This document shows, in pieces, positions 14,137 through 62,726 of a stretch of DNA of 64,000 bases. A model generated the notes under the pieces. That model was not told where the DNA came from and did no database searches. It saw only the letters and a list, made by a program, of their open reading frames with translations. The stretch is from IMG/VR virus record IMGVR_UViG_3300023297_000003. One strand, written 5' to 3'. A program made the position numbers and the translations under genes. Source of the DNA: a virus (Duplodnaviria > Heunggongvirae > Uroviricota > Caudoviricetes). Position 1 is the stretch's first letter. Every line of letters begins with the position of its first letter.

Positions 14137-14772
14137 ATGACACTTTTAGAACAGCACCGTGACCTGGCCCTCATGATCCTCGTAGGCAGGGCACTTCCCG
14201 AAGGACTGCCCTGGACCCCGGATGAGGACCAGGGCTTCGTGTCCCGTGAGCGCCTCCTGTGGGTCCAGTTGACCGAAGAGGAGCAGGCACAGGAACAGGA
14301 GGCTCTGGGGGCGCTGTGGGGCAAGCGTGGCGCTCCCCGTACCGTTCCCGTGAATCCCCAGTGGGGTGCTTGGACAGAGGGCCTCACCGAGGTCTCGATC
14401 CCTGACTCGGCGTTCGGTTTACCGGACAACGCCTTCCGCCCCTTGGTGAAGGGCATCCAGATCCTGGCCGAGGAGCACCCCGAGTTGATCGTCCTGTTAG
14501 AGTGGTTGTGGAAGCGGGGGTTCCATCCCGTTGCTTTCGATGGGGACACCCTCACGCTGCTCATCCCGCCCCACAGAATCGTCCAGGAGTCCGAGCGGCT
14601 GGTTGGGATCCTCATCCGGGACTGGCCCAAGATCCCCGTGGTGTCCCGCCCGGCGGAGGCGTCCCTGACCGTTAAGGGTTCCTATGACCCCGTGAGCGGT
14701 CAGGCGATCATCTATCTGTCAGGGGTCACGCCGTTTCAATCCACGCACCTTTTGCCAAAAGATGCGACTTAG
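14137..14772 (+). CDS. hypothetical protein
   Basis: 211-aa ORF with protein-like composition; opposite ORF 14100..14630 is R/S-rich artefact; 3' end contains SRU2. Confidence 0.5.
   Translation: MTLLEQHRDLALMILVGRALPEGLPWTPDEDQGFVSRERLLWVQLTEEEQAQEQEALGALWGKRGAPRTVPVNPQWGAWTEGLTEVSIPDSAFGLPDNAFRPLVKGIQILAEEHPELIVLLEWLWKRGFHPVAFDGDTLTLLIPPHRIVQESERLVGILIRDWPKIPVVSRPAEASLTVKGSYDPVSGQAIIYLSGVTPFQSTHLLPKDAT
14733..14768 (+). repeat. solitary CRISPR-repeat-like unit (SRU2), 30/36 identical to array repeat
   Basis: gtttcaatccacgcaccttttgccaaaagatgcgac; both handles conserved, central hairpin replaced. Confidence 0.6.
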
Positions 14773-33138: not shown

Positions 33139-33154
33139 TGAGGAGAATGAAACG

Positions 33155-34656: not shown

Positions 34657-35042
34657 GTTTCAATCCACATACCGTTCCTTAAAACCTGCTAAAATGTAAC
34701 AGGCATCAAGTTTGAAGCTGTGCCGAATCTTGGTGTCCCAAGTACCTCGGTAGTAAACTTCCGGCCCAACGGTAAGGGCTCGAATGACGGTTGCTCCTTC
34801 CGTCCGAATCCCAAGGAACTGGTCCGTTTAACACGGAATCGCTCTCTTAGCACTCGTTTTATGCCTCTCGGATGATCGTTAGTTTTGATGCGTTCGTCCC
34901 CAGAACATCTGGGCACACCAGAACCTCCTACCCAATCAGCATGAGCTTTCCTGCCGCAACAGCTCCCTGTTTCAAGCAGGAACAGTTAGACTTTAGCAGG
35001 TATGAAGGGCACTGTCAAGTACCCTTTGTCAAAGGATACGAC
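34657..35042 (+). repeat. solitary CRISPR-repeat-like unit (SRU3) split by insertion of mini element B
   Basis: left flank gtttcaatccacata (34657-34671), right flank tttgtcaaaggatacgac (35025-35042) together resemble one 36-bp repeat. Confidence 0.5.
34672..35024 (-). mobile_element. 353-bp miniature TnpB-derived element (mini B)
   Basis: same composition and deletion junction as mini A; right end ccgttcc.. at 34672, left-end hairpin gggcactgtcaagtaccc 35007-35024. Confidence 0.7.
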
Positions 35043-36054: not shown

Positions 36055-37245
36055 GTTTCAATCCACGCCCCCTCATGGGAACGACGAGGTTGTCTACACT
36101 TACTACCCTAATGTTTCAATCCACACACCCGTGAGGGAGTGACCCCTTCTGCCTCGCTGCGGTTTCGTTTCAATCCACGCATCCCCTTGTTAGATGGTAC
36201 GACGGCAGGGTTGCGCCTTCTCAGGGATCAGTCCGAATCAGCGTTTCAATCCACGCACCCCTTGTTAGAGGATGCGACGTGAGCCGACCAGCCAGTTCCC
36301 CGTAAATCGGATTTAGTTTCAATCCACGCATCCTTTTTTCAGAGGATGCGACAGTAAGGCAGGCATGGCTCGTGGGGCGCTGGCTCACTGCGTTTCAATC
36401 CACGCACCCTTTGTTAGAGGATGCGACCGGTCACCCACGGACCAGGGGTGGAGTTCGCTTACGTTTCAATCCACGCACCCTTTGTTAGAGGATGCGACTT
36501 CGCCAGCGCCTTCAGGGCGGGAGTCGCAAGGGGGATCTCGTTTCAATCCACGCACCCTTTGTTAGAGGATGCGACGCTCCAAGGGCGGACAGGAAAGGGA
36601 AGTGTCATCGGATTGTTTCAATCCACGCATCCTTTGTTAGAGGATGCGACTTGTGACCGTCATTCCTGGATTTCGCCCAACTTCGAGTTTCAATCCACGC
36701 ATCCTTTGTTAGAGGATGCGACGAGGAAGACCGTCTTGTCCCGTCGAGCAGTCCTCTGAGCGTTTCAATCCACGCATCCTTTGTTAGAGGATGCGACACG
36801 GCGTCCCCAGGCCGTGGGAGCCGTTCTGTGGGCCTGTTTCAATCCACGCATCCTTTGTTAGAGGATGCGACTTCAGCTTCCCCTCTGGATCCTTGACGGC
36901 GAGGCACTTGTTTCAATCCACGCATCCTTTGTTAGAGGATGCGACACCCACCAAGTCGCACTCGACTGGGTCGCTGTTTGAAAGTTTCAATCCACGCATC
37001 CTTTGTTAGAGGATGCGACACCACCATAGGTCGGCTTCTTCCCCGCCAGGTCCACAGTGTTTCAATCCACGCATCCTTTGTTAGAGGATGCGACTGGTGA
37101 TCTCATCCGGGGTGTCATGCGGGCAGTAACGTTTCAATCCACGCATCCTTTGTTAGAGGATGCGACTTTCCGTTGGCTTGAGCCCGCTGGACGCCTGCAC
37201 GTACTCTCTGTTTCAATCCACGCATCCTTTGTTAGAGGATGCGAC
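36055..37245 (-). CRISPR. type I-C CRISPR array, 17 repeats of 36 bp (GTCGCATCCTCTAACAAAGGATGCGTGGATTGAAAC in transcript sense), 16 spacers of 35-43 nt
   Basis: direct repeat count by eye; leader-distal repeats at 36055-36280 degenerate; perfect repeats next to cas7. Confidence 0.95.
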
Positions 37246-37441: not shown

Positions 37442-38467
37442 TTACTGGATGGCCCGGAACTCGACACCTTCCGGGAGCTTGGACTCGTCCACGGTGACAG
37501 TGTAGTCGTCGAAGGACATCGGGGCCTCTACCCCGTCCTTTTTGACCACAGTCACGATGCGTCCGTTGTCCAGCAGCTTATGGGCCGGGGCGCACCCGAG
37601 CTTGGCCTGCTGTGCCCGCTCTTCGGGGTCGTCCGCCGTCCCGACGTGCTTGAAGATGTAGATGCCCCGACAGGTCATCAAACCCTTGCTGGAGGTCCGA
37701 TCATGGTCGTACATGTTTTCCAGACCCTCGATCATCAGGGCCAGATCCTCCGCCGAGAAGCCCGTCTGTTCCGCCACGAAAGCGCTCACCGTGATGTTGG
37801 CAGCGAAGAGACCGTAGGGGATGATCGCCTTGGTTCCCATCGTGCGGAGAGCCGCCGCCTCGGCCCCGTCCTCATACTCCTGCCACTGGGCGGAGGAGAA
37901 ACCCTGATCCTTGGGGGTCTTGACCTTCTTGGGATCAGGGGAGCCCTTGGTGTCGGTCATGCGGGTGATGGTGATCTCCTGGATGGATACCGGATCGAGG
38001 GACCGGGCACTCACCACCTGGACGGGTCCACGAATCTGGCCCGCCTTGGCACCTGTGTTGAGAACACCGCCGAAGGTGCGGACATCCCAATAGTCCTGGC
38101 ACATCCGGTCACCCGCCGCCCGCTCCTCCTGCTTGGTAGCCTTCGCCGGGACGGTCCCGTGGGAGTCCTCGTGGGCCTTGGCGATGAGCCTGTTGGTACA
38201 GGTGTTCATCATCAGCAAAATCTGGTACGGGGTCTTGCCTGCCTTGCGGAGACTCACGTAGTTGCGGAGACGCCGCTTGATGGCGACGTCGGTGACGAAC
38301 CCGTGTCCCGTGTCCGGGATGGTCCGGGGCAGGTTGCCGAAGTCGGGGTCACCGTTGGGATTCCCCATCAGACAATCGAACAGGAACAAGATCTCGAACC
38401 TGTATCCGATTGCCGCCGTCCCACTCTTCAGCCACATCAAAAGATCCTTCATGATACTTCTCCTCAC
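37442..38467 (-). CDS. cas7: Cas7 (Csd2, type I-C)
   Basis: FLFDCLMGNPNGDPDFGNLPR Csd2 signature; start may be M6 (38452). Confidence 0.8.
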   Translation of the reverse strand: MRRSIMKDLLMWLKSGTAAIGYRFEILFLFDCLMGNPNGDPDFGNLPRTIPDTGHGFVTDVAIKRRLRNYVSLRKAGKTPYQILLMMNTCTNRLIAKAHEDSHGTVPAKATKQEERAAGDRMCQDYWDVRTFGGVLNTGAKAGQIRGPVQVVSARSLDPVSIQEITITRMTDTKGSPDPKKVKTPKDQGFSSAQWQEYEDGAEAAALRTMGTKAIIPYGLFAANITVSAFVAEQTGFSAEDLALMIEGLENMYDHDRTSSKGLMTCRGIYIFKHVGTADDPEERAQQAKLGCAPAHKLLDNGRIVTVVKKDGVEAPMSFDDYTVTVDESKLPEGVEFRAIQ

Positions 38468-38512
38468 TTTATGCCTAATCCAACTCTAAGGCCCACCTTA
38501 GGCCATTAGAGA

Positions 38513-40345
38513 CTATGCCTTAATCGGGGGTGTCCCTGCGGGCTTGTCCTGCTTCTTCCAGGACGAGCGCTGGTGGAGCAACCCCATGGCAAACAAAGCT
38601 TGATCCTCGATGCCGAGGCGGGTCGGAAGGTCTGTGGGCAGGCGGTCGACGATCTCCTGCCGTTTGTGATCCGCCCATCCCTTTCCCTGTCGGACGAGCT
38701 TGTTGACGTGCTTCTCGGAACGGAGCAGTAACCGGGCCAGCGCACGGGCCGGGTTCTGCATCGTTGCGGACGAGAACTGAGCAGCCAGGGCCATCGGGGG
38801 GTTCCTCCCACCGATGGCGAGGCTCTGGAGTTCGGACAGGACGGACAACAACCGCCCACACTGGTACGCCACACTCGGGTGGTCCTTGTTCAATCCTGCT
38901 TCACACATGGTGTTCCCTCTCCTGTTGATGAAGGTTTTGAGGATTCCCGGCAATGCCGGAGCGATCCCCATGTTGGTTGACGGTTTGATGGACAGGTGCA
39001 ACTGTGACCGGAACTGCACCAGGGCCTTTTTGACAATGCTCATTGGGACCGACTGGCCCCGCAGGGCTACCTGAACGAGCATCTCACGCTCCAGTTCGGA
39101 AGCTTTGCCCCTTGGGCCGTTGACAGCGGAAAGGATCTGCCAGAGTGCAGAAAGGCGGGCGATCCCCGTGTCATTGCGGTTGTTGCTGATGGTCATATCC
39201 TGATACCATCGATAGATGTTCTTGAACAGGACGGACAGGGGTCCAGTCTCCCAGTGCCGGACAGCCAACCGGGGACCGTTGCTAGAAACGATGCCCAAGG
39301 TGCAGTCCATGTCTAGGACACCTCCCGGTCCGGTGCCCGTGTCCAGGTATTCCTTCACCTTCCGGGTGGCACCCCGGAGTTCCCCATCCGTCAATCCCGA
39401 GTTCAAGAGGTCGGACATAACGTCGGACAGGATCTGGGTCCACTCGCCCCCTTCAAGAACCGGCCCTTGGCCCGCCAGCAGTCCAGCCTTCCCCGTAAGG
39501 GTTTCTCCCCTGGAACAAGCCCACACAAGGATTCGAAGATCCCCAAAGGCCGTCCCGGCGTTTTGGGCGGCATGAACCAGAGCCTGGGTCATTGTGCTCG
39601 CCGTCTGGTCTGACATCGGAGCAACGAGGCCAGACTCCTGGCCATAGTGGTGACTGGAGGTCTGCTTGGCGGCAACCAGCTTCGTCTTCGTTGTGCCGAA
39701 GGCAATGCCGTCAGGATGGATGCGGCAGGGGTTCGTGATCTCGTCCCCGGTGACGACGCAGCGGAACGTCTTATCGCTGGTCTTCTTCTTTTTGTCCGCT
39801 CCTGAAAGGTAGGTCGCCCACCACTCCCGCCATTCCTTCTTGTCCTGGAACGGGATGCCGAGTTTCTTCCCCTCGGTCTGGAAGATCACAGCCCGCTTGA
39901 GGTCTGCCTCCATCTTCGTCAGAGCCTGAACCACAAGGGCGACCTGCTCGTCGTCCTCCAGGAAGGTCTGGATGGGGGTCAGGTACTTCCGAGTGCAGGG
40001 AACCTCCTTGATGACCGTTCTGATCTGCTCCAGGAAGAGGCCCCTCTTCACCTCGTTCTTGGTGTTGTCGTGCGGTTCGGCCACGAGGAGAGGGAACACC
40101 TGGGGGACATACCCGATGAAGAAGTGAGTCTTGGGGGGCGTGGCCCTGAGCAAATTGGAGGGCACCCGAGGTGTCAGGATCGGGGAGGCCGTCTTGGTGT
40201 CCCTGAGGTGACAGTCCTGGTACTTCCCGTCCGGGGTCAGGCACACTACGGTTTCCACGACGGTCAGGTACTCGTACCCCACCGGAGCCTGCTGGGGCAT
40301 ATAGTGTGCGGCATAGTTGAGGAGGCTCTGTCCGATACCACTCAT
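38513..40345 (-). CDS. cas8c: Cas8c (Csd1) large subunit
   Basis: 610 aa between cas5c and cas7, size and position typical of Csd1; no independent motif. Confidence 0.65.
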   Translation of the reverse strand: MSGIGQSLLNYAAHYMPQQAPVGYEYLTVVETVVCLTPDGKYQDCHLRDTKTASPILTPRVPSNLLRATPPKTHFFIGYVPQVFPLLVAEPHDNTKNEVKRGLFLEQIRTVIKEVPCTRKYLTPIQTFLEDDEQVALVVQALTKMEADLKRAVIFQTEGKKLGIPFQDKKEWREWWATYLSGADKKKKTSDKTFRCVVTGDEITNPCRIHPDGIAFGTTKTKLVAAKQTSSHHYGQESGLVAPMSDQTASTMTQALVHAAQNAGTAFGDLRILVWACSRGETLTGKAGLLAGQGPVLEGGEWTQILSDVMSDLLNSGLTDGELRGATRKVKEYLDTGTGPGGVLDMDCTLGIVSSNGPRLAVRHWETGPLSVLFKNIYRWYQDMTISNNRNDTGIARLSALWQILSAVNGPRGKASELEREMLVQVALRGQSVPMSIVKKALVQFRSQLHLSIKPSTNMGIAPALPGILKTFINRRGNTMCEAGLNKDHPSVAYQCGRLLSVLSELQSLAIGGRNPPMALAAQFSSATMQNPARALARLLLRSEKHVNKLVRQGKGWADHKRQEIVDRLPTDLPTRLGIEDQALFAMGLLHQRSSWKKQDKPAGTPPIKA

Positions 40346-41013
40346 GCTGCACCCCCTGGCCGGAACACGGCGGCACTATCAGTGAACTCCGGGTAGGCCA
40401 CGGCCCCATCCTTGATCTGTGCGTGGAACACGCTGACCGAAGGATCTCCATCGGGCACCAGCAGATTGAAGGTGTCGTAGACCATCACCCCCACGTCCAC
40501 CTGAAGGTCTGCGAGTCCCTGTGATGGATCATGCTCATCCACCGGGACAAGCTGGAAGTTGGCCATAAACTCCTTGCAACCTAAGAAGGGCTGGTGGAAA
40601 CATTGGCCCCTCTCCGCCCGACGACGGAATTGGGCGTCGATGGCGTTGGTGTTCCCATCAGGATTCCGGCAGACCGCCCGTGCGAAGATGCGGTACCGGG
40701 GGTCCAGGAGAGTCCTGGTGTGCTTTTGGGTCCGGTGCTTCTGGGTTGTAAGATCAACCTGAAGAGTGCGGCGGGTGACCTTGTCTTTCATCTCGTTCCG
40801 CATGATCCCCATGTACCGGATCGGGTTCACAACCTCTACCCCGACGATCTGCCAGTAGAAGTTGGCGGACCTTTTCCAGTAGATAGCGTCGAAGATCCCC
40901 CGACAGGCTGAGTGGGTTGGGATGGGGTAGGTGGTCCGCTCCGTCACCTCTGGGCGGGAGAAGCAGGCATTGTCCCCCCACACTTCCAACCCGTGCAGCA
41001 TACCTTTTTTCAT
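40342..41013 (-). CDS. cas5: Cas5c (Cas5d) pre-crRNA endonuclease subunit
   Basis: 223 aa, N-terminal GLEVWGDNACFSRPE resembles Cas5 glycine-rich region; position upstream of cas8c. Confidence 0.7.
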   Translation of the reverse strand: MKKGMLHGLEVWGDNACFSRPEVTERTTYPIPTHSACRGIFDAIYWKRSANFYWQIVGVEVVNPIRYMGIMRNEMKDKVTRRTLQVDLTTQKHRTQKHTRTLLDPRYRIFARAVCRNPDGNTNAIDAQFRRRAERGQCFHQPFLGCKEFMANFQLVPVDEHDPSQGLADLQVDVGVMVYDTFNLLVPDGDPSVSVFHAQIKDGAVAYPEFTDSAAVFRPGGAA

Positions 41014-41107
41014 CTGTCCCTCCGTCTGTTTATCCAGCCGAGTTTCTTCGGCGGCACTTCTTACTACTCAATGAAGTCGCAAAAGGAACCCCTGTCCGCA
41101 GACTTTT

Positions 41108-43486
41108 TCATTGCACCAGCCCAAGTTCCGGGTGGTAGGCTCTTGGGTCAGTGCAGATGTACCAGCCCGTTTCGGTGATGGAGCCGTCCTTCCTTTTCAG
41201 CGTGACGGGGTCAAGGCTGAGCCAGAGGGGGTGATCCTTCTTCAGTGACAGAACAGAGACCGATAGCAGGGCCGCTCGGTTCATCCACATCCGGAAGCTT
41301 TTCCGGGTGGGCCGCTCCTTGTTGAGTTTCCTGTACTGCTCCCCACACCCTCCTTCCAGGTAGGGAACGACGACCTGGACCCCTTTGTCGGGAATGACCC
41401 GGTAGCGTCGACTGACCTTCTCGAAGGAACCCTCCTGGTACGCCTCGATGATCTTTTTGGTGGCCGGGTGATCTAGCCCTGCTTCCCGATAGAGGGCCTC
41501 ATAGTACTGGGTCAAGATTTCCGGGTTCGTCGGGTCGAGACGTTGTCCGTAGCGCCGGAGGAACCGCTCCGTGATCCGGGCAGCAGCCTGGAACCACTCG
41601 TCATGCGGGAACATGTCCTTGTATTCAACGTCCGGGCGGAAAACGAAGATGTCCCCTAGTACCCGCAAGCCCTCCCGGTTTACCCGCCCAGCGGTTTGTG
41701 CCGTCCCATCCAACGGTCCCATGGCCGGGAAGCCCCTGTTGAAGTCGAAGTCCGTCCCTGAGTTCACACAAGGAGTAGCTGCCAGAACGAAGTAGTCCCC
41801 AACGGTCTTCAACCGACGAACCACCTCTTTGAGTAGCCCCTTCCGGTGGGCTGGACACAGGTTGGAAGTCAAATAGATAGCTCGATCCGCCCCCCACCGT
41901 GTCTGTATTTCCCTCCAGGCCGCTTCCGCATGGTCCTTCCTGTTGAGAAGCACGAGGTTTGACATCCTTTCCGAACACACCCGGTCAGCCAACTGCGCCC
42001 AGGTCCACCTCTCGTCGTCGTTGTGCGGCCAGTGAAACTTGTTGCGGACCATCGCCTTGGCCGAGGCTACGGGGGCGGAGGCAATCTCCTCGTAGGGCTG
42101 GAGCGGTTCCCCCACGAGTGTTTCTACCTGAGGCAGGATGCTCTGGAAGGCAGGCTGGGTGGCCGTGGCAGACACCACCGTGACCTGATACTGACGGCTG
42201 AGTCGGTCGAGCATTGCTATTGTGGGGAGCATAAGGTGGCTGGGCAAAGACTGGCCCTCATCAAAAATGATCACGCAGTCCTGGATGTTGTGGAGTTTCC
42301 GGCATCTCCCTGGCCGATTGGAAAACAAGGACTCCAATAGTTGAACGTTCGTGGTGAGGATGATTGGTGCATCCCAGTTTTCAGTGAGCCCTCGTCGGTC
42401 AATCTCATTTGATCTACCATCCTGTTGGAGATCCTCCTCTTCGACCCACTGCGTGGCGTCCGTGTGATGCTCCAACACAAAGTGGGGACCGAAGGCCCGG
42501 TCCTTGAAAAGCTCCTTCAGGGTTTTCGCCGTCTGTTGAATGATGCTTTTGTAGGGTACAGCGATGATCACCCGTTTAAGTTGGTGGGCCTGACAGTGCG
42601 CCAGGGCGAACGAGACCAGCGCTAGAGTTTTGCCTACACCGGTGGGGGCTGTACAGGTCAAAATGCGTCCTGGAGGCCCCTGGGCGGCTCTGAGGCAGTC
42701 CTGTCGTAGACGGTCCCGTTCCTGTTGCACCACAGGGGAAGCACCATCGCTGCGTTTGCTCTTGGCACTGAGGCCGTCGATGTATTTGTTCAAAACGTCA
42801 AGGGCGAGACCGGCGTCCAACGGGGGGTTGGGACAGGTGCGCCCTGGTTTGAAGTGCTCGGCGGTGTCCAGGAAGTCGGCGTCAACGAGCGCAGAAAAGG
42901 CCATTCGGACATCCAAGCCCTTGGCAATGGACAACTGCCAGCCTTTCACCAGTTCAGAAAAAGAAAAGAAGGTCTCATCATCATTTATATTGATTTCAGG
43001 AAGCTCGATGCCATCCTCACGTAGGGGAACCAACAAGTCTTTCGCTGGCCCCGGATAGACATGGAAGACACCGGGGTTAGGATGAGTCCCGCTACCCATC
43101 GGCTGTGCAGAGGGGCGTAGGACACACCCCAAATAGACGCGTGAGAAATCCGGCAGACCCCTATGGTGTCCGGCGATCAACAGGGAAGCGAGGAGGGATC
43201 CTCGGTCGTAAGCAACCCAGGCTCCAGGTGAGGAATGATCCAGCACCCCTCGGGCTACCCCGTTCAGTACATCAGGGAACAGGGGACTGTATTTGCCGAT
43301 GTCATGCCCCCGGCTGGCGAAAGAAACCTCTCTGACGTGCTGGGGTGGGAAGTGGGTGCCCAGGAAACGGAGAGTCAGCGCTTCAACCCCCAACAGATGT
43401 TCCACCATCGTTTGGACCTTGCCGGTTACTTTGCTGGCGCTGTGGGCTATTCGGTTCCAGTTGGGCATCTGTCCCCCCCTATACAC
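41108..43486 (-). CDS. cas3: Cas3 HD nuclease-helicase
   Basis: N-terminal HD (HDIGKYSP, HHRGLPDF), Walker A TCTAPTGVGKT, DExx IFDEGQ. Confidence 0.85.
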   Translation of the reverse strand: MYRGGQMPNWNRIAHSASKVTGKVQTMVEHLLGVEALTLRFLGTHFPPQHVREVSFASRGHDIGKYSPLFPDVLNGVARGVLDHSSPGAWVAYDRGSLLASLLIAGHHRGLPDFSRVYLGCVLRPSAQPMGSGTHPNPGVFHVYPGPAKDLLVPLREDGIELPEININDDETFFSFSELVKGWQLSIAKGLDVRMAFSALVDADFLDTAEHFKPGRTCPNPPLDAGLALDVLNKYIDGLSAKSKRSDGASPVVQQERDRLRQDCLRAAQGPPGRILTCTAPTGVGKTLALVSFALAHCQAHQLKRVIIAVPYKSIIQQTAKTLKELFKDRAFGPHFVLEHHTDATQWVEEEDLQQDGRSNEIDRRGLTENWDAPIILTTNVQLLESLFSNRPGRCRKLHNIQDCVIIFDEGQSLPSHLMLPTIAMLDRLSRQYQVTVVSATATQPAFQSILPQVETLVGEPLQPYEEIASAPVASAKAMVRNKFHWPHNDDERWTWAQLADRVCSERMSNLVLLNRKDHAEAAWREIQTRWGADRAIYLTSNLCPAHRKGLLKEVVRRLKTVGDYFVLAATPCVNSGTDFDFNRGFPAMGPLDGTAQTAGRVNREGLRVLGDIFVFRPDVEYKDMFPHDEWFQAAARITERFLRRYGQRLDPTNPEILTQYYEALYREAGLDHPATKKIIEAYQEGSFEKVSRRYRVIPDKGVQVVVPYLEGGCGEQYRKLNKERPTRKSFRMWMNRAALLSVSVLSLKKDHPLWLSLDPVTLKRKDGSITETGWYICTDPRAYHPELGLVQ

Positions 43487-43551
43487 ACAGCTACTCGGGG
43501 AAGACCGGCGATGATCAATTGGGGGACTGGGATCTCGTCAGATGTGTCGAG

Positions 43552-45700: not shown

Positions 45701-45775
45701 TTACTGACCTCTGCTTCTTGTTTCAAGCAGGAATAGTTAGATTTTAGCAACTAAATTGGGTACTGTCAAGGACCC
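44262..45775 (-). mobile_element. IS1341-type (tnpB-only) IS200/IS605-family element
   Basis: right end ccgttcc.. at 44262; left-end hairpin gggtactgtcaaggaccc 45758-45775; no tnpA. Confidence 0.75.
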
Positions 45776-46845: not shown

Positions 46846-46861
46846 ACCAGGAGGATTGACG

Positions 46862-53129: not shown

Positions 53130-53217
53130 TGAGTCAGACCATTTCTATCGACCGGATCCAGGTGTTGCACTTCGCTGACGGGGTAGATCGGGTGGAAATC
53201 CTCACGGACAAACCCTA

Positions 53218-53570
53218 CCGTTCCTTAAAACCTGCTAGAATGTAACAGGCATCAAGTTTGAAGCTGTGCCGAATCTTGGTGACCCAAGTACCTCGGTAGT
53301 AAACTTCCGGCCCAACGGTAAGGGCTCGGATGACGGTTGCTCCTTCCGTCCGAATCCCAAGGAACTGGTCCGTCGAAGACGGAATCGCTCTCTCAGCACT
53401 CGTTTTACGCCTCGTGGGTGATCGTTAGTACCAATGTGTTCACCCCCAGAACATCTGGGCACACCAGAACCTCCTACCCAATCAGCATAAGCCTTCCTGC
53501 CATAACAGCCTCCTGTTTCAAGCAGGAACAATTAGACTTTAGTAAGTTTGAGGGGTACTGTCAAGTACCC
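53218..53570 (-). mobile_element. 353-bp miniature TnpB-derived element (mini C)
   Basis: right end ccgttcc.. at 53218, left-end hairpin ggggtactgtcaagtacccc at 53552-53571; same junction as minis A and B. Confidence 0.7.
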
Positions 53571-53795
53571 CTTCTTTGAGGACGACGGAGACTTGTCGTT
53601 AACCCTCAGTTTCACAATCCCAAGGAAAGACACGGCGAGGTACCTCAAGGAACACCTGGGGGTCACCCGCTACCAGGAGTTCAGACGACGGGGAAGTCGC
53701 ACCAAGGCGACTAGTGGGATCATCTGGGGGACCGTCCGAGTAGTTAATGGTGTACATGAGGACGCTAATGGATACCCGAAGGGCCAGGAGACAAA

Positions 53796-54221
53796 ATGAT
53801 ACCCTGTAGTGCTCGCTGCCCAAACAAAATAGTGGATGGCCGCTGCATTAACGAAATCACAGTAGCCCCTGCTTCCTACACAGACGAGGAATGGGCTGAA
53901 TGCATGGAGGACATGGGGTATGAACCGGATAAGATCCCATCTCGCAAAGACATGGTGGTAGCGGGGTATTTCGACATCTTTATGGAAACCCGTTTCTTCC
54001 GAGTCCCACGAGGCACACACATCTACATCTGGGATGTGGAAGGTCTCGTAGCACAAGGGGACAGCGAAAGCTCGACCATCGTGCGAACCAGAGGGGCCGT
54101 TAATGGACGTCTCCCTTGGCTTGAGAAGGAGCATTCCTCCTGGGTGCTCCTGTGGAAAGGTGCCGATGGTCGCCTTCGGGGGGCATCCCGTGCAACGTGC
54201 ATCCCCCTAGAAGACAGGTGA
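53796..54221 (+). CDS. hypothetical protein
   Basis: 141-aa ORF; promoter motif 53716-53750. Confidence 0.5.
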   Translation: MIPCSARCPNKIVDGRCINEITVAPASYTDEEWAECMEDMGYEPDKIPSRKDMVVAGYFDIFMETRFFRVPRGTHIYIWDVEGLVAQGDSESSTIVRTRGAVNGRLPWLEKEHSSWVLLWKGADGRLRGASRATCIPLEDR

Positions 54222-54279
54222 CGGCAGTATAACTGTCACAACCTGACAGCCCCGTCCGTCCTGTCAGGCAGGAGGAAAC

Positions 54280-54855
54280 ATGAAGACACCAAGCATCGCA
54301 ATGAGCCCTTTCGTGGACCGGCAACGGGATCCCAACAGCGGACTCACCCACTGGGAGATCACGGACGAGGAACTGCTCAAACGGGTCCAGGAGAACTTCG
54401 ACCTCCAGCGCCCTGGCTACCGGGACGGCGTCGTCTTGGTGCCCGTCTCACCCGATGGTTTCAAAGCAGGGATCCGTGTGCTCCAGGAGGGGGACAAGCT
54501 CCGGGGGTCCTACAAGGCCCGGAGGGACGGCGAGACGCCCCGCATGTCCGTTGGGTACGAGTGCCCCACGCCCATCTCGGAGGCCAAGGTGACGCCCCGG
54601 TCGGTGGACGTCGTGCTCTACCATCGGGATGTCCTGGCCGAGGACGAAACCTACGTCGAGACCGAGTGGAACGTCATCTGTGTGCTGGGGAAGTTCTGTT
54701 CTGCGGAGGATGAGGAGCCGATGATCCCTCAAACCCTGATGGCCAACCACTTCGGGGATGACGGTGGCTCGGCCACGGGGATGTCGCCGGAGGCTTTCGA
54801 GGCCGCTCTGAAGGCCTCCTACTACTACTGGCGGGACAAGGTGATGCTGGGCTAG
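54280..54855 (+). CDS. hypothetical protein
   Basis: 191-aa ORF; stop codon immediately followed by SRU1. Confidence 0.5.
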   Translation: MKTPSIAMSPFVDRQRDPNSGLTHWEITDEELLKRVQENFDLQRPGYRDGVVLVPVSPDGFKAGIRVLQEGDKLRGSYKARRDGETPRMSVGYECPTPISEAKVTPRSVDVVLYHRDVLAEDETYVETEWNVICVLGKFCSAEDEEPMIPQTLMANHFGDDGGSATGMSPEAFEAALKASYYYWRDKVMLG

Positions 54856-54891
54856 ATTTCAATCCACGCATCCATTTCTAAAGGACACGAC
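54856..54891 (+). repeat. solitary CRISPR-repeat-like unit (SRU1), 29/36 identical to array repeat
   Basis: atttcaatccacgcatccatttctaaaggacacgac; 3' handle (transcript sense GGATGCGTGGATTGAAAT) conserved, 5' stem arm lost. Confidence 0.55.
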
Positions 54892-54896
54892 CTACT

Positions 54897-55079
54897 TTAA
54901 GGGGTCTCGGTGACCACCTCGGAGCCGATTTTTGTAGCGTCCCGTTCCCGGAGGGCCTTGAGTTCTTTGAGCCACTCAGCCAATTGCTGGTGCTCCACCG
55001 CACAGGTGCAGTCGGGGCCATCCTTGTGCTTCTGGCGGGCTGTGTCCTCAGCGTGCTCTATTGCCTCATCCAGTGTCAT
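54897..55079 (-). CDS. small hypothetical protein
   Basis: 60-aa ORF, overlaps thyX stop. Confidence 0.4.
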   Translation of the reverse strand: MTLDEAIEHAEDTARQKHKDGPDCTCAVEHQQLAEWLKELKALRERDATKIGSEVVTETP

Positions 55080-55801
55080 TCAGGTGCTCCTTCGATGTCC
55101 TCAAACAGGACAGGGGTCCGTGTTCGTAGCTCCTTCAACAGGGGGATCGTCACCTCCCGCATCTGCGGGTGGGCAGCGTGGGCTGTCCGTTGTTTCCTTA
55201 TGAGACGCCATTCCCTGATGTTTGCCGTGACAAAGATCTCGGTCTTGGTGGAGTTGGGTAGAACGCTCCGGGCCTGCTGTGGTGTCCACTGTGCTCCCCG
55301 AAGGGCCTGGTAGTGACCTTCAGCCTGGAGCATAGCGTTCAGCCACATTCTGACAGGGTCCTCGGGCATCAACCAGACGTCCTGATAGAAAGCTTCGCCT
55401 TCCTTCGTCTGCCAGACCCGGCGGTAGTTGTCCTGTTCCCAATGTAACCAGTAGCCACCCTCGTACTCGGAACCGAACCAAGATGGGATGATGAACTGGC
55501 AGTGGCCGTCCGACTTCATTCCTGTGTAATCCACGTAACGGCTGCTTTCCTGGGAGAAGGACGCAAGCCTGTGTCGAACCAACTCGTGCGAGATCCCCCG
55601 ATCAACCACGAACCGCACGGTGAACCCAGCGTGCTCCAGGATGGATTCGTGACCTTGCCTGAGGCGCTTCCGCACGAAGGCCTTCGGGTTGCCCCTCGGC
55701 TCGCTCTTGTAGCAGATACGCCCGGCACGCTCGATGAGACGCAGTGCATCATCACCGAACAGTCCCTCTTCGATGTGGAAGCTGGGTTTCAACAGGATCA
55801 T
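55076..55801 (-). CDS. thyX: flavin-dependent thymidylate synthase ThyX
   Basis: ISHELVRHRLASFSQESSRY (RHR..S..SxRY ThyX motif); start set to MILLKP overlapping upstream stop. Confidence 0.85.
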   Translation of the reverse strand: MILLKPSFHIEEGLFGDDALRLIERAGRICYKSEPRGNPKAFVRKRLRQGHESILEHAGFTVRFVVDRGISHELVRHRLASFSQESSRYVDYTGMKSDGHCQFIIPSWFGSEYEGGYWLHWEQDNYRRVWQTKEGEAFYQDVWLMPEDPVRMWLNAMLQAEGHYQALRGAQWTPQQARSVLPNSTKTEIFVTANIREWRLIRKQRTAHAAHPQMREVTIPLLKELRTRTPVLFEDIEGAPE

Positions 55802-56391
55802 GAGGTCTTCCTTTTGAAGGTGTAGACCCAGACCCAGGGGTTGTCCTTCCAACGGAAATCAGGTTTGGCGAGGCTGTCCCAAAGGGCTGCGAAGGCAGTT
55901 TGGGCTGAGTAGAAATCAGCGTCAACACCCGGAGCGTGAAATAACCATTTGCCGGGGCGCACGTCCTGCATCTCGATCCCTTCCGCAATGCAGTCGTCCT
56001 CGCTAATGTCCTGCAACCGTTCGACACTCACGTTGGTGATGCGGAGCCAGGTGCGGGCATATGCCGCCGACAAGCCCTTTCCAGATACAGGAACCCAACC
56101 ATTGCCCTTTGGCTGGTAGAACCGAATAGAGCTTCCTGTCACATTACTCCAAAAGGGCTCCTGAAGGTAGACACTGTCACCAGTAAGATAACGGGGTTGG
56201 ATGTTGTGGTGCCACTCCCCGCCGCAACCAGACTCGGTCACAACAAACACAGGTTGATCATCTTCGTTTTGCCCCTGACGAATGACACCCCCTTGGTCGG
56301 GTTGCGGTTTCACCACCCTACGGGTTTGGGTCTTGCTGTCATCTCTCAGCTTAGGCAAAAGAACGTCTACGAATCGAATTCCTGTGCTCAT
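55798..56391 (-). CDS. hypothetical protein, possibly ASCH/PUA-like
   Basis: MSTGIRFVDVLLPKLRDDSKTQTRRV.. and ..ISEDDCIAEGIE; weak. Confidence 0.35.
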   Translation of the reverse strand: MSTGIRFVDVLLPKLRDDSKTQTRRVVKPQPDQGGVIRQGQNEDDQPVFVVTESGCGGEWHHNIQPRYLTGDSVYLQEPFWSNVTGSSIRFYQPKGNGWVPVSGKGLSAAYARTWLRITNVSVERLQDISEDDCIAEGIEMQDVRPGKWLFHAPGVDADFYSAQTAFAALWDSLAKPDFRWKDNPWVWVYTFKRKTS

Positions 56392-56684
56392 TACCTGATC
56401 TCCGTTGTGTCCGTAGACCTTTCGGGCATCTGAATAGACAGCACACGCCCATCCTCCAACAGGATGTCTCCGAGCCTCTCCCCGCCGTGCCCACAGCAAC
56501 TTGCCACGGTGATGATGTTGGCTGCGTTCAGGGCGGCTACAATATCAGCAATACAGATGTCAATCTCCTGCCGACGTCCCCGAAGGGCCATGGGCACCTG
56601 ATGCTCGTAACTGCCAACAGGGCAACAGCCTCCTGCTCGGATTTTACGGGCCAAACGGTTGGTGGAGCCTGTTCCGTCACTCAT
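56391..56684 (-). CDS. hypothetical protein
   Basis: 97-aa ORF. Confidence 0.35.
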   Translation of the reverse strand: MSDGTGSTNRLARKIRAGGCCPVGSYEHQVPMALRGRRQEIDICIADIVAALNAANIITVASCCGHGGERLGDILLEDGRVLSIQMPERSTDTTEIR

Positions 56685-57199
56685 CGGCCAACACTCTTCT
56701 TCAGCAGCTTGTCACGGAGGAATTTGAACACTTGCCAGACCTGGGGTTGATGCGGTTGCCGTGCGAGTGCCTCGATGTCATCCACATCGGGATAGGTTGT
56801 TCGGAGGCGGCGGAGCACCTCCTTGTAGTAGATGTAGACGATGTTCCGGTCACTCACGGACCAGGCAACTGCAGCCTTAGCCTCTATGGGCCATTCCTTT
56901 TCGTCAGCGAACCGAGCCATCACCAGCCGGGCAAGCTCCTCCGCTGAAGGTACCTTGCCTTCGTAGATGCCCTCTACCAACGGGGACCAGACTCCATTGT
57001 CGTAGTCGGATACGAGATAGTTGACACCCTGAGCCAGCCAGAAAAGCAATTGCTCATCTGGAAACTCCTCCAGGGTCACATCGGCAAGCCCCTTGGGCTT
57101 TGTTTGTCTGGCCTTGGCTGTCCTTTCCTTACGCTTGGTTGCACGGCGCTGTGCTGCCTTCCTACGCCGTTTCTCTTTCTCCTGCTCTTTGTTTCCCAT
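56681..57199 (-). CDS. hypothetical protein with basic N-terminus
   Basis: KEKRRRKAAQRRATKRKERTAKARQTK. Confidence 0.45.
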   Translation of the reverse strand: MGNKEQEKEKRRRKAAQRRATKRKERTAKARQTKPKGLADVTLEEFPDEQLLFWLAQGVNYLVSDYDNGVWSPLVEGIYEGKVPSAEELARLVMARFADEKEWPIEAKAAVAWSVSDRNIVYIYYKEVLRRLRTTYPDVDDIEALARQPHQPQVWQVFKFLRDKLLKKSVGR

Positions 57200-57332
57200 A
57201 GATGCCCCCCAGCCTTATATCATCTACTCTACCGTCGTGTCCCTGGCACAAGGTGGGATCAAGGTGGGATCATCGTTGTCAGGACCAGAGTAGTACTTGT
57301 GAGGGCAAATGATCCCTGCAAGGAGCACCTTG

Positions 57333-57605
57333 ATGACGATCACAAGCAAAAACCTGAAACCCACCAAACGTCAGTACCAGGCCCTCAGGCGTGTCCTTAG
57401 CACCTCCCTGGCCAAGCAAAAGACCTACATCGCAACGTGGCGGTCCTTGATCCATCATGGGTGGCTCCAGGACAGTTTCGGCCACACCGAGCTTTCCCCC
57501 AGCGGGGAGGAGGCATTCGTTTGTGGGTGCCGGAAGTACGAGAGCGAGGCCGTCCAGGATTCGTGGAAGGAACGACTTCCCCGAGGACCTTGGGAAACAA
57601 AGTAG
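57333..57605 (+). CDS. hypothetical protein
   Basis: start MTITSKNL after AAGGAG; promoter motif 57268-57310. Confidence 0.4.
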   Translation: MTITSKNLKPTKRQYQALRRVLSTSLAKQKTYIATWRSLIHHGWLQDSFGHTELSPSGEEAFVCGCRKYESEAVQDSWKERLPRGPWETK

Positions 57606-57606
57606 T

Positions 57607-57658
57607 GGGATCATCTCCTCCGACCTCAGAGTAGTAAGGGTGAGGGGCAAATGACCCC
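57607..57658 (+). promoter_or_regulatory. conserved promoter-like motif + UTR stem-loop
   Basis: gggatcatct cctccgacctc agagtagtaagg gtgaggggcaaatgacccc. Confidence 0.5.
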
Positions 57659-57672
57659 GCAGGGGAGACACC

Positions 57673-58152
57673 GTGAAGAAACACACCAAGGAACTCTATG
57701 AAGTGTGGAAGGAACGGGACCACGAGTGGAAGTTCCGCTCTCCCCACGGTGTTGTGACCATGAGGACCAAAAGGAAAGCCGAGGCTGCTGCCCGTTCCTG
57801 GAGACGGGCCAACCGCAAGGTTCCCAAGTCCCTCAAGGATGAGTGCGGTGTGACCAACATCTCCTTGGATAACGCTCGCTACATGCAGGCCCGTTACGGG
57901 ATACCTGAGACCGTGGTATTCCACACTGATGGTTCGGATTACCGCACGGAAGCGGCGTATCGTGACACAGACATACAGGAGATTGTCCTGATGGTCTACA
58001 CGGGATTCGGATGGGGCTACAGCGGGGAAGGTCCGCACGGCACTCTCGAATTCCTCAACGACATGTGCAACGTCGACATCAGCATCAGCACCATCGCAGG
58101 GTGGGACAACAAGGGGTCCTATCGGACCATAGACATCCTGACCGAGGCATAG
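57673..58152 (+). CDS. hypothetical protein (GTG start)
   Basis: 159-aa ORF. Confidence 0.45.
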   Translation: MKKHTKELYEVWKERDHEWKFRSPHGVVTMRTKRKAEAAARSWRRANRKVPKSLKDECGVTNISLDNARYMQARYGIPETVVFHTDGSDYRTEAAYRDTDIQEIVLMVYTGFGWGYSGEGPHGTLEFLNDMCNVDISISTIAGWDNKGSYRTIDILTEA

Positions 58153-61534: not shown

Positions 61535-61553
61535 CCTTGTGACGGAGGGTTTA

Positions 61554-62726
61554 ATGAGTATAGGACACACCATTCAGGGAGGCCGGACAACGGCTGTTGT
61601 TTACGGGGACTACCCAGATCAATTGGAGGCTCAGCAGATCTACGCACTCTTGGATCTCCCCGCTTTTGCGGGGGCCAAAGTGAGGATCATGCCCGATCAT
61701 CACGCAGGCTTTGGTTGTGTGATCGGATTCACCTGCCCCCTGGATGAGGAGGACTTGGCTGTTGTGCCCTCTCTTGTTGGGGTCGATATTGGGTGCGGCG
61801 TAAACGCTGTTCGGTTAACGGGCACAACCAAAGATCAGACTGATTTCGAAGCTTTCGATAAGCATTTGCGAACCCATGTCCCTTCGGGGTTTCGGAACCG
61901 AACAGAGGTGTCCAAAGACCTCCCATACTTGTTCAAACACTACTTGGGGAGAGGCCCTTCCTGGTCTGATTTTCAGGACACCGTGAATGATGTGGACTGG
62001 AGTGCCCGAGGAGATGGGAGTAAGGTGTGGCATTCTCTTGGTTCTTTGGGGTCAGGGAACCACTTCTTAGAACTGGATCAGGAAAAGGACGGTGCAGATG
62101 TTTGGCTGATTATCCATTCCGGTTCCCGGAATTTCGGTCTACGGGTAGCTGAGAAGCATCAAAATGTTGCCAAGACCAAGTTGGGTTCCTGGGGTGGTCT
62201 CGCTTGGCTGACTGGAGATGACGCTCGGTCCTATCTTCGTGAAATGCGTCTGGCCCAACAGTTGGCAGCCCTGAACCGTTTGGTGATGGCTACAGAACTG
62301 GTACGCTTTTTCGGGTTGAAACTGGCAGACCTGGAAATGGTCACATCGGTACACAACTTCATCGGGAACGACGACATCATCCGCAAGGGTGCCATCTCGG
62401 CCAAGGCAGGGGAAGAACTCATCATACCCTGGAATATGCGGGATGGGTGTATTTTGGGCGAAGGCAAAGGTAACGAGGACTGGAACAACTCGGCACCCCA
62501 CGGGGCCGGACGGAAGATGGCTCGGGGAAGGGCCAAGCGGGAGTTGTCCCTGGAGGAATTCAGGGACACGATGAAGGACGTTTGGACCTCCTGTGTGACC
62601 CGGAAAACCTTGGATGAAGCTCCGATGGCATATAAGGACTCGCAGACCGTTGAGGACTGCATCGGGGACACGGTCGAAATCAAGGCCCGGTTGAAGCCGG
62701 TCTACAACTTCAAGGCAGGGGCGTAA
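61554..62726 (+). CDS. rtcB: RtcB-family RNA ligase
   Basis: MPDHHAGFGCVIG, SLGSGNHFLE, APHGAGR motifs. Confidence 0.85.
   Translation: MSIGHTIQGGRTTAVVYGDYPDQLEAQQIYALLDLPAFAGAKVRIMPDHHAGFGCVIGFTCPLDEEDLAVVPSLVGVDIGCGVNAVRLTGTTKDQTDFEAFDKHLRTHVPSGFRNRTEVSKDLPYLFKHYLGRGPSWSDFQDTVNDVDWSARGDGSKVWHSLGSLGSGNHFLELDQEKDGADVWLIIHSGSRNFGLRVAEKHQNVAKTKLGSWGGLAWLTGDDARSYLREMRLAQQLAALNRLVMATELVRFFGLKLADLEMVTSVHNFIGNDDIIRKGAISAKAGEELIIPWNMRDGCILGEGKGNEDWNNSAPHGAGRKMARGRAKRELSLEEFRDTMKDVWTSCVTRKTLDEAPMAYKDSQTVEDCIGDTVEIKARLKPVYNFKAGA

What the first reader, a model, noticed from the sequence alone, without database searches (positions are those of the whole stretch)
54856..54891. Solitary CRISPR-repeat-like unit SRU1 in the 3' UTR of the thyX-operon transcript
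The sequence atttcaatccacgcatccatttctaaaggacacgac matches the repeat at 29 of 36 positions. In crRNA sense it reads GTCGTGTCCTTTAGAAATGGATGCGTGGATTGAAAT. The 18-nt 3' portion, including the 3' stem arm and handle, is retained, but the 5' stem arm is lost. It starts one base after the stop of gene 54280..54855 and 5 nt after the stop of the minus-strand gene 54897..55079. It would therefore be transcribed in repeat sense at the end of the thyX-containing minus-strand operon. Its arrangement matches SRU2 and SRU3.
Basis: seen in the sequence. Interest (0 to 1): 0.7.

Follow-up and report, generated by a model that had tools for sequence, protein, structure and literature searches.

The report
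Lone CRISPR repeat ending thyX operon
A single, well-preserved copy of a giant phage's own type I-C CRISPR repeat sits at the tail of a thymidylate-synthase operon, where it most likely acts as a decoy or cleavage site for the CRISPR RNA-cutting protein Cas5c; such decoys are already known, but here the phage also encodes the matching Cas proteins.

Summary
Window 54856-54891 matches the 36-nt repeat of the window's own type I-C array (36055-37245, crRNA sense on the minus strand) at 29 of 36 positions. The best match in 300 dinucleotide shuffles was 25 of 36. The unit is solitary and fills a 41-nt gap between convergent genes. It starts 5 nt after the stop of a 60-aa ORF that is translationally coupled to thyX.

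Its two changes (C5U, A6G) give G-U pairs, so the repeat hairpin still forms in the crRNA sense (-8.1 kcal/mol) but not in the antisense (-2.7). The 11-nt handle differs only at its last base (C to U).

Across the three solitary units in the window, 18 substitutions spare GTCG and nearly all of the handle. Stem changes are wobble or compensatory. This argues that Cas5c recognition has been kept.

The source is a 528-kb phage-like contig encoding cas3-cas5c-cas8c-cas7 without cas1, cas2 or cas4.

My best reading is a Racr-like Cas5c substrate or decoy, laid out like the published RacrIC1. Rivals are an mRNA 3'-end processing signal or a relic. It is a new member of a known kind; function is untested.

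The parts
54856..54891 (-). SRU1: solitary type I-C repeat unit. In crRNA sense it reads GTCGTGTCCTTTAGAAATGGATGCGTGGATTGAAAT.
   Evidence: 29/36 to the array repeat. Shuffle maximum 25/36. Covariance model score 51.6 bits.
54867..54889 (-). Repeat hairpin of SRU1 (RNA positions 3-25). The stem has 7 pairs including two G-U pairs, and the loop is 9 nt.
   Evidence: -8.1 kcal/mol in the minus sense against -2.7 in the plus sense. The hairpin is kept in a 110-nt context in both the minimum-energy and centroid structures.
54856..54866 (-). 11-nt handle UGGAUUGAAAU, the part that becomes the crRNA 5' tag after Cas5c cleavage of a real repeat.
   Evidence: Identical to the array handle except the last base. 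Both C and U endings occur in natural type I-C repeats. The cleavage position is taken from published work on Cas5c/Cas5d (my own knowledge) and was not tested.
54897..55079 (-). 60-aa ORF directly upstream of SRU1 (5-nt gap). It belongs to a widespread small phage protein family (MTLDEAIEHAEE..C.C..EH.QLAEWLKELK) with invariant His/Cys/Cys/His.
   Evidence: phrog_33451, E 2.8e-10. 34 homologues aligned. No Pfam, NCBIfam or meaningful PDB match.
55076..55852 (-). thyX (flavin-dependent thymidylate synthase). Its stop overlaps the start of the 60-aa ORF. The public gene call gives 241 aa, 55076-55801.
   Evidence: Pfam Thy1, E 6e-43. Gene calls on the source contig.
55798..57199 (-). Three upstream genes of the same minus-strand unit (55798-56391, 56391-56684, 56681-57199), with overlapping or abutting stops and starts.
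   Evidence: Gene calls on the source contig. ORF list.
57224..57229 (-). GAGTAG box about 25 nt upstream of the first gene. It is the downstream half of the motif repeated throughout this genome ahead of start codons, and is a candidate promoter element for the thyX unit.
   Evidence: Sequence. Motif census. Function is inferred.
54280..54855 (+). Convergent DUF3228 gene. Its TAG stop abuts SRU1.
   Evidence: Pfam DUF3228, E 9.3e-10. Homologues.
36055..37245 (-). The cognate CRISPR array. It has 14 canonical 36-nt repeats in two variants, followed by degenerate trailer repeats.
37442..43486 (-). Type I-C interference module: cas3 (41108-43486, HD plus helicase), cas5c (40342-41013), cas8c (38513-40345), cas7 (37442-38467). 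No cas1, cas2 or cas4 was seen.
   Evidence: Pfam and NCBIfam. Cas5c matches solved 'pre-crRNA processing endonuclease' chains, E 8e-31.
14733..14768 (-). Second solitary unit (30/36). It lies 8 nt after the stop of a minus-strand metallo-beta-lactamase-fold gene, between convergent genes.
35020..35042 (-). 5' part of a third solitary unit, 29 nt after the stop of gene 35072-35971. It is separated from its handle by an inserted transposon derivative.
34657..34669 (-). 3' part (TGTGGATTGAAAC) of that third unit. Joining the two parts gives a 36-nt unit matching at 31/36 and folding at -9.0 kcal/mol.

Best explanation
SRU1 is a solitary copy of this huge phage's own 36-nt type I-C CRISPR repeat. 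It is carried at the 3' end of the thyX operon transcript in crRNA sense.

Shown: the match is far beyond chance. The RNA keeps the repeat hairpin in the crRNA sense only. It keeps the GTCG start, and the 11-nt handle is unchanged except for its last base. The phage encodes Cas5c, Cas7, Cas8c and Cas3.

Inferred: the operon mRNA runs through the unit. Cas5c, from the phage and from any type I-C host, binds the hairpin and handle and cuts 11 nt from the 3' end of the unit. This gives two products: an mRNA ending in the hairpin, and a handle-tagged RNA with no proper spacer or 3' repeat.

The most likely consequence is the one shown for RNA anti-CRISPRs (Racrs). Cas5c and Cas7 are drawn into non-productive complexes, which damps type I-C interference. 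The layout copies RacrIC1, which lies 11 nt after a small ORF and is co-transcribed with it.
For: - Match and chance: 29/36 against a shuffle maximum of 25/36.
- Strand-specific hairpin: -8.1 against -2.7 kcal/mol, kept in a longer context.
- Substitution pattern: in the three solitary units, 18 differences from the array consensus include only 1 in the 12 nt of G plus handle and none in GTCG. I counted these from the alignment; about 6 would be expected in the 12 nt if differences were spread evenly.
- Stem changes: they are G-U wobbles or compensatory (C9-G19 to U-A; C5-G23 to U-A). 95.8% of stem cells are paired.
- Orientation: all three units lie in crRNA sense, 5, 8 and 29 nt after a stop codon of a gene on the same strand.
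- Length: the units are 36 nt like the phage's own repeat, not the 32-33 nt usual in bacterial type I-C arrays.
- Cas proteins: a complete interference module with a Cas5c endoribonuclease homologue is present.
- Precedent: RacrIC1 lies 11 nt downstream of an acr gene on one bicistronic RNA and inhibits type I-C (PMC10651486).
- Relative: a close relative keeps the same wobble-paired hairpin 5 nt after the orthologous ORF.
Against: - There are no transcription, cleavage or inhibition data.
- The cognate Cas proteins are the phage's own, so a decoy would also damp the phage's own system. Published SRUs are described as not associated with cas genes.
- Identity to the repeat is 81%, below the 90% cut-off used by SRUFinder.
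- The covariation counts are not significant against shuffles, with only nine sequences.
- The conservation pattern could have been inherited from a different source array rather than kept in place.
- The unit is young and dispensable. More distant relatives lack it. In the closest relative the handle is replaced at a cassette junction. A sister unit is split by a transposon derivative.
- The neighbouring ORF is not a known Acr.
Confidence: 0.45

Rival explanations
1. SRU1 is a Cas5c-dependent mRNA 3'-end signal. The phage uses its own crRNA endoribonuclease to cut operon transcripts at solitary repeats. This leaves a protective hairpin, possibly still bound by Cas5c, at the mRNA 3' end. It also stops read-through from running antisense into the convergent gene.
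For: All three units sit at the 3' ends of transcription units in sense orientation, and two lie in very short gaps between convergent genes. No intrinsic terminator is present at these junctions, and terminator-like sites in 53500-58000 are no more frequent than in shuffles. The units resemble the phage's own 36-nt repeat, and the phage encodes Cas5c. In the close relative the hairpin is kept while the handle is lost.
Against: No natural case of a CRISPR endoribonuclease maturing mRNAs at solitary repeats is known to me. Only three sites were found in about 74 kb, while many other convergent junctions have none. Relatives manage without the unit.
Confidence: 0.17
2. SRU1 is a non-functional relic. 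A repeat was copied from this or another type I-C array by recombination into tolerated intergenic DNA and is now drifting. Its 'conserved' features were inherited from the source repeat.
For: The unit is specific to this lineage and recent. Sister units have been hit by insertions within the unit. The SRU1 stem is weaker than the array's and has lost the closing U-A pair. Handle conservation is generic to all type I-C repeats. The covariation statistics are not significant.
Against: The 18 differences avoid the handle and GTCG. Single stem changes are all of the kind that keeps RNA pairing in the crRNA sense only. Orientation and position after stop codons are consistent in all three units (3 of 3).
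Confidence: 0.28
3. SRU1 is a crRNA-like guide of the CreA, CreR or mini-array kind. The handle plus the downstream sequence would load into Cascade and direct it to a partly matching target, either to regulate a gene or to attack a related phage.
For: The intact handle would place the downstream RNA in the guide position. Regulatory crRNA-like RNAs are documented (abstracts listed).
Against: No second repeat lies within 100 nt. The 36 nt downstream are antisense to the 3' end of the DUF3228 gene. Within the window they match only their own locus, which lacks a TTC PAM (AAT instead). No hit combining a seed match with a TTC PAM was found for the sequence flanking any unit. In the relative, the same sequence is preceded by ATA.
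Confidence: 0.05
4. SRU1 is an intrinsic, bidirectional transcription terminator that only happens to look like a repeat, or the resemblance is pure chance.
For: It is a hairpin in a 41-nt gap between convergent genes.
Against: No U-tract follows the stem, and the scan finds no terminator here. The plus-strand hairpin is only -2.7 kcal/mol. The 12-nt non-hairpin tail matching the CRISPR handle cannot be explained by a terminator role. Chance is excluded by the shuffles.
Confidence: 0.03

Closest known systems
RacrIC1 and other RNA anti-CRISPRs (Racrs) / viral solitary repeat units (Camara-Wilpert et al. 2023, PMC10651486; SRUs first listed by Faure et al. 2019)
   Same: It is a single CRISPR-repeat mimic on a viral genome, in an intergenic position. 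The repeat hairpin and handle are kept. It is of type I-C, where Cas5 is the processing enzyme. It lies a few nt downstream of a small ORF, so it should be co-transcribed (RacrIC1: 11 nt after an acrIC5 homologue; here 5 nt).
   Different: The matching cas3-cas5c-cas8c-cas7 operon and array lie on the same phage genome, 11-18 kb away. Published SRUs are described as not associated with cas genes and as matching host systems. Identity to the repeat is 81% rather than 90% or more. The upstream ORF is not a known Acr. No inhibition has been shown.
Huge-phage type I-C variant CRISPR-Cas systems lacking adaptation genes (Al-Shayeb et al. 2020, PMC7162821)
   Same: The source is a 528-kb phage-like contig with a compact array and a Cas5c-type processing enzyme, and without cas1, cas2 or cas4.
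   Different: That work describes arrays and cas loci, not dispersed solitary repeats. The system here has a Cas3 with an HD domain, not a replacement helicase.
CreA/CreR and other crRNA-like regulatory RNAs; viral mini-arrays
   Same: They are degenerate repeat-derived RNAs outside the main array that use the resident Cas effector.
   Different: Those RNAs have a guide with a matching target, and usually two flanking repeat-like elements. Here there is one repeat and no target was found.
Engineered Csy4/Cas6 cleavage sites used as RNA insulators in synthetic operons (my own knowledge)
   Same: A single CRISPR repeat hairpin is placed at a gene boundary so that the endoribonuclease cuts the transcript there.
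   Different: That is an engineered use. No natural equivalent is established, and none is shown here.

Membership tests
Viral solitary repeat unit (SRU) | Sequence similarity to a known CRISPR repeat over (nearly) its full length | tested here: met
   29/36 over all 36 nt of the window's type I-C repeat, against a shuffle maximum of 25/36. The 81% identity is below SRUFinder's operational cut-off of 90%.
Viral solitary repeat unit (SRU) | Solitary: no other full or partial repeat within about 100 bp | tested here: met
   A covariance-model search without filters finds no other hit within about 18 kb of 54856-54891.
Viral solitary repeat unit (SRU) | Intergenic position on a virus or other mobile element | tested here: met
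   It lies in a 41-nt gap between two called genes. The source is a 528-kb contig of mostly small unknown genes with PHROG matches, a repeated promoter-like motif and no match in bacterial naming models for most genes. Phage structural genes were not examined, so 'phage' is likely but not proven here.
Viral solitary repeat unit (SRU) | Not associated with cas genes on the element, with the repeat matching the host's system | tested here: not met
   A cognate type I-C cas operon and array lie at 36055-43486 in the same window. The host is unknown: the 3' part of the repeat is generic across phyla, and the nearest Cas7 homologues are only about 50-53% identical.
RNA anti-CRISPR (Racr) | Repeat-like secondary structure in the crRNA sense | tested here: met
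   The hairpin has the same register as the array repeat, at -8.1 kcal/mol in the sense strand against -2.7 in the antisense.
RNA anti-CRISPR (Racr) | Transcribed, alone or with a neighbouring gene | not testable with these tools
   Only context is available: a 5-nt gap after an ORF coupled to thyX, no terminator, and a GAGTAG box upstream of the unit.
RNA anti-CRISPR (Racr) | Bound and processed by the Cas endoribonuclease, forming aberrant Cas subcomplexes | not testable with these tools
   A Cas5c homologue is present. Its catalytic residues were not checked.
RNA anti-CRISPR (Racr) | Inhibits interference by the cognate CRISPR-Cas type | not testable with these tools
   This needs a phage or plasmid targeting assay.
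RNA anti-CRISPR (Racr) | Frequent neighbourhood of acr or other anti-defence genes | tested here: inconclusive
   The 60-aa neighbour has no known function. The gene before the sister unit at 14733 is a metallo-beta-lactamase-fold hydrolase. Its match to the anti-Pycsar Apyc1 family is sub-threshold, at 30.2 bits against a cut-off of 50.
crRNA-like regulator (CreA/CreR) or mini-array | A guide flanked by repeat-like elements, with a PAM-flanked (partly) matching target | tested here: not met
   There is no second repeat. No target with a TTC PAM and a seed match occurs in the window. The rest of the genome and the host were not searchable.
Intrinsic terminator | G+C-rich hairpin followed by a U-tract | tested here: not met
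   No site is called at 54856-54896. The stem is followed by GUGGAUUGAAAU.

The most novel reading that the evidence does not exclude
The solitary repeats are not aimed at a host. They would be cis-acting signals for the phage's own Cas5c. In this reading, a huge phage has turned its crRNA endoribonuclease into an operon-maturation enzyme. The enzyme would cut and cap mRNAs at repeat units placed after the last gene, or would couple expression of these operons to the amount of free Cas5c or Cascade.
Probability: 0.15. Interest if true: 0.8.

Novelty: new member of a known kind. Interest (0 to 1): 0.45.

Why it matters
Racrs are a recently described way for phages to blunt CRISPR immunity with RNA alone. 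Only a few have been tested, including one of type I-C. This locus offers three natural type I-C variants that keep the handle and stem pairing but differ in loop and stem sequence. A close relative has the hairpin without the handle. Together they form a ready-made mutational series for asking what Cas5c needs to recognise.

The unusual point is that the matching Cas proteins are encoded by the same phage. That raises a testable question: do such units inhibit a host system, tune the phage's own system, or serve as RNA-processing sites? If they are merely relics, the finding is a minor annotation.

Tried and rejected
- **Chance match.** Rejected by the shuffles.
- **Terminator.** Rejected: there is no U-tract and no call from the scanner.
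- **Mini-array or crRNA-like guide.** There is no second repeat and no PAM-flanked target for the flanking sequences in the window.
- **Conservation in relatives.**
  - Samples holding the same phage are 100% identical over the locus, so they are uninformative.
  - DUF3228 homologues at 59-67% identity have no unit.
  - One close relative (L133/L134) was informative.
  - A metagenome scan with the hairpin pattern returned only that relative.
- **Host identification.**
  - The 18-nt repeat tail hits type I-C arrays in many phyla.
  - Cas7 has no homologue above about 53% identity.
  - Searches of the phage and viral collections with DNA, Cas7 and DUF3228 found nothing close.
- **Acr identity of the 60-aa ORF.** There were no hits beyond an unknown-function PHROG and designed helical repeat proteins.
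- **More solitary units.** None were found in the 10 kb upstream of the window. The look-up for the downstream side failed.
- **Covariation statistics.** Pairing is high (95.8%), but the test is not significant against shuffles with nine sequences.
- **Array spacers against the window and relatives.** The only hit was an 18/19 PAM-distal match of spacer 11 to gene 56681-57199, with no PAM. I judged it chance.

Full report
**Observation**

The window holds a CRISPR array at 36055-37245. Its plus-strand repeat is GTTTCAATCCACGCATCCTTTGTTAGAGGATGCGAC, so the crRNA sense is the minus strand: GTCGCATCCTCTAACAAAGGATGCGTGGATTGAAAC. SRU1 matches this repeat at 29/36.

I removed the array and made 300 dinucleotide-preserving shuffles of the window. 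The best match on either strand was 25/36, and usually 21-22. The 14-nt tail GCGTGGATTGAAAY occurs 19 times against 0.07 expected.

I built a covariance model from nine repeat and unit variants and ran it without filters. It found all the array repeats. Outside the array it found only three loci: 14733-14768 (54.8 bits), 54856-54891 (51.6 bits), and a split unit at 35012-35042 plus 34657-34672. SRU1 is therefore real, significant and solitary.

**Setting**

Exact protein look-ups place the window on a 528-kb JGI metagenome contig, Ga0208769_1000001. The locus is identical in several other samples. The window encodes these genes on the minus strand, directly upstream of the array:

- cas3, with both the HD and helicase parts (41108-43486)
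- cas5c (40342-41013)
- cas8c (38513-40345)
- cas7 (37442-38467)

No cas1, cas2 or cas4 is present. Adaptation-less type I-C variants like this have been described in huge phages (PMC7162821). The Cas5c matches solved 'pre-crRNA processing endonuclease' chains at E 8e-31.

SRU1 fills 36 of the 41 nt between two convergent genes. One is a DUF3228 gene (54280-54855, plus strand), whose TAG stop abuts the unit. The other is a 60-aa ORF (54897-55079, minus strand), which ends 5 nt from it. The start of the 60-aa ORF overlaps the thyX stop as ATGA. Three more minus-strand genes abut or overlap upstream, as far as 57199.

No terminator-like site lies in or after this unit. A GAGTAG box sits about 25 nt before the first start codon. 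It is the downstream half of a GGATCATC-N13-GAGTAG motif that precedes about 28 start codons in the window, including that of cas3. Transcription of SRU1 in crRNA sense, as the tail of the thyX unit, is thus the natural expectation. It is inference only.

The seven differences from the repeat are at RNA positions 5, 6, 11, 14, 15, 18 and 36.

- Positions 5 (C to U) and 6 (A to G) lie in the 5' stem arm. They turn C-G and A-U pairs into U-G and G-U pairs.
- Positions 11, 14 and 15 are in the loop.
- Position 18 opens the closing U-A pair.
- Position 36 (C to U) is a variant seen in many natural type I-C repeats.

The hairpin therefore still forms in the array's register. It folds at -8.1 kcal/mol, against -11.7 for the array repeat. 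The plus-strand RNA folds at only -2.7. The hairpin survives in a 110-nt context, in both the minimum-energy and centroid structures. So the 5' arm is not lost. It is kept in a form that works only as minus-strand RNA.

**The three units together**

The unit at 14733-14768 matches at 30/36. It lies 8 nt after the stop of a minus-strand metallo-beta-lactamase-fold gene and is again between convergent genes. It carries a compensatory C9-G19 to U-A change and a U-G wobble, and folds at -10.4 kcal/mol.

The 'SRU2' at 34657-34692 is the end of a repeated element of about 350 bp fused to TGTGGATTGAAAC. That element is present five times in the window. Two copies carry tnpB, and a serine recombinase gene lies next to one of them, so it is of IS607 type. 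The missing 5' part, GTCGTATCCTTTGACAAAGGGTA, lies at 35042-35020, 29 nt after the stop of gene 35072-35971. Joining the two parts across a shared GG gives a 36-nt unit. It matches at 31/36, folds at -9.0 kcal/mol, and has a compensatory C5-G23 to U-A change.

I counted 18 differences from the consensus across the three units, using the alignment. Only one falls in the 12 nt of G plus handle, and none falls in GTCG. About six would be expected in the 12 nt if differences were spread evenly. Every single-sided stem change keeps RNA pairing in the crRNA sense only.

The formal pair count gives 95.8% of cells paired and two compensatory pairs. With nine sequences, it is not significant against column shuffles. 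I take the pattern as suggestive evidence that the Cas5c recognition features are maintained. One caveat applies: the same pattern would arise if the units were copied from other functional type I-C arrays.

All three units are 36 nt long, like the phage's own repeat. Bacterial type I-C arrays usually have repeats of 32-33 nt.

**Relatives**

DUF3228 homologues at 59-67% identity sit in related phage-like contigs that have no unit. In one of these contigs, the small-ORF homologue is 136 aa long and overlaps the DUF3228 stop. The unit is therefore young.

One close relative (L133/L134) is about 97% identical at the nucleotide level in thyX. Five nt after the orthologous ORF it has GTCGTGTCCTCTGAAAAAGGATGC. 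This is the same wobble-paired stem, with the closing U-A pair intact, and it folds at -10.7 kcal/mol. Homology then breaks inside the handle, which reads GAGGATGGGTGA. A cassette carrying a 160-aa gene follows before DUF3228.

The window state cannot be derived from the relative by a simple deletion. The relative most likely lost the handle through a cassette insertion.

Both this insertion and the transposon derivative in SRU2 show that individual units are dispensable.

**Mechanism**

Published work on Cas5c/Cas5d shows that it cuts type I-C repeats at the 3' base of the hairpin, leaving an 11-nt 5' tag (my own knowledge). The Racr paper also states that Cas5 is the type I-C processing enzyme. 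By analogy, SRU1 RNA should be bound and cut between window positions 54867 and 54866.

The closest documented case is RacrIC1. It is a solitary type I-C repeat 11 nt downstream of an acrIC5 homologue. It is expressed on the same bicistronic RNA and is able on its own to relieve type I-C targeting (PMC10651486). I therefore rank a Racr-like decoy or Cas5c substrate first, at 0.45.

The main difficulty is that the cognate Cas proteins are the phage's own. Published SRUs are described as not associated with cas genes and as matching host systems.

That difficulty keeps two rivals alive:

- The units may be cis signals by which the phage's own Cas5c forms or caps mRNA 3' ends at terminator-less convergent junctions (0.17).
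- They may be drifting relics (0.28).

A guide-like role has no support. There is no second repeat, and no PAM-flanked target was found for any flank in the window. A terminator role and a chance match are both excluded.

**Host**

The host could not be identified. The repeat tail is generic to type I-C arrays across many phyla. The nearest Cas7 homologues are only about 50-53% identical. The phage and viral collections hold nothing close.

**Verdict**

SRU1 is a new member of a known kind, a type I-C solitary repeat unit and Racr candidate. The unusual feature is a co-resident cognate cas operon. Function is untested.

Interest is moderate at 0.45. It would rise substantially if the units prove to work with the phage's own Cas5c.

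Noticed in passing
window 1661-3852, 17294-17647, 34670-35019, 44261-45775, 53217-53570: There are five copies of one transposable element. Two are full-length and carry a tnpB-like gene (474 and 502 aa); the copy at 1676-3100 has a serine recombinase gene beside it, so the element is of IS607 type. Three are derivatives of about 350 bp without a gene. These keep both ends and the roughly 300-nt 3' region that overlaps the end of tnpB, which looks like an omega-RNA. A third, more divergent tnpB-like gene lies at 12406-13836.
   Followed up: partly
window 34657-35042: One gene-less copy is inserted inside a solitary CRISPR repeat unit. The sequence immediately after the element's 3' end, where a TnpB guide would be read, is therefore the CRISPR handle TGTGGATTGAAAC. 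I did not examine whether a TnpB RNA from this copy could act on CRISPR repeats.
   Followed up: partly
window, about 28 sites, e.g. 57608-57634(+), 29127-29153(-), 43491-43517(-): The motif GGATCATC-N13-GAGTAG lies 30-50 nt before start codons and always on the strand of the downstream gene. It is often followed by the hairpin GGTGAGGGGCAAATGACCCC and a Shine-Dalgarno sequence. It looks like this phage's own promoter plus 5' leader module, and it also precedes cas3.
   Followed up: partly
window 36055-36352: The trailer end of the array holds degenerate repeats. Two are 37 nt long. Two are 31 nt and of a more canonical type I-C form (GTCACTCCCTCACGGGTGTGTGGATTGAAAC and GTCGTTCCCATGAGGGGGCGTGGATTGAAAC), with short spacers of 23 and 27 nt. 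The array proper has two repeat variants (GGATGC and GGGTGC).
   Followed up: no
L133 1211-1805 compared with window 54856-54866: In the closest relative, a cassette with a 160-aa gene and part of a leader-like sequence (GGGTGAGGGCACCCC) is joined exactly within the handle of the solitary unit. Its other end is at the DUF3228 stop.
   Followed up: partly
window 56847-56865 and spacer 11 (36428-36462): The 3' 19 nt of spacer 11 match the first gene of the thyX unit at 18/19 in the same sense. There is no match in the PAM-proximal half and no TTC PAM. This is probably chance.
   Followed up: yes
window 14777-15544 (-): The gene just upstream of the solitary unit at 14733 is a metallo-beta-lactamase-fold hydrolase. 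Its match to the anti-Pycsar Apyc1 family is sub-threshold (30.2 bits, cut-off 50). It is a possible anti-defence gene.
   Followed up: no
window 14137-14772 (+): A 211-aa plus-strand ORF with high third-position G+C reads through the whole antisense of the solitary unit at 14733-14768. Its last 13 codons are encoded by the repeat unit.
   Followed up: no
window 54897-55079 (-) and homologues P0055-P0088: The 60-aa ORF belongs to a widespread small phage protein family with an invariant MTLDEAI start. It has invariant His9, Cys24, Cys26 and His30, which suggests a small zinc-binding helical protein. Some members have long C-terminal extensions.
   Followed up: partly
window 44002-44073, 46856-48403, 61539-62726, 21739-23604, 32960-33742: Other cargo seen in the window: tRNA-Ile(GAT), a PARP-like protein, RtcB RNA ligase, an NAD-dependent DNA ligase, and a protein with a GmrSD N-terminal domain.
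   Followed up: no
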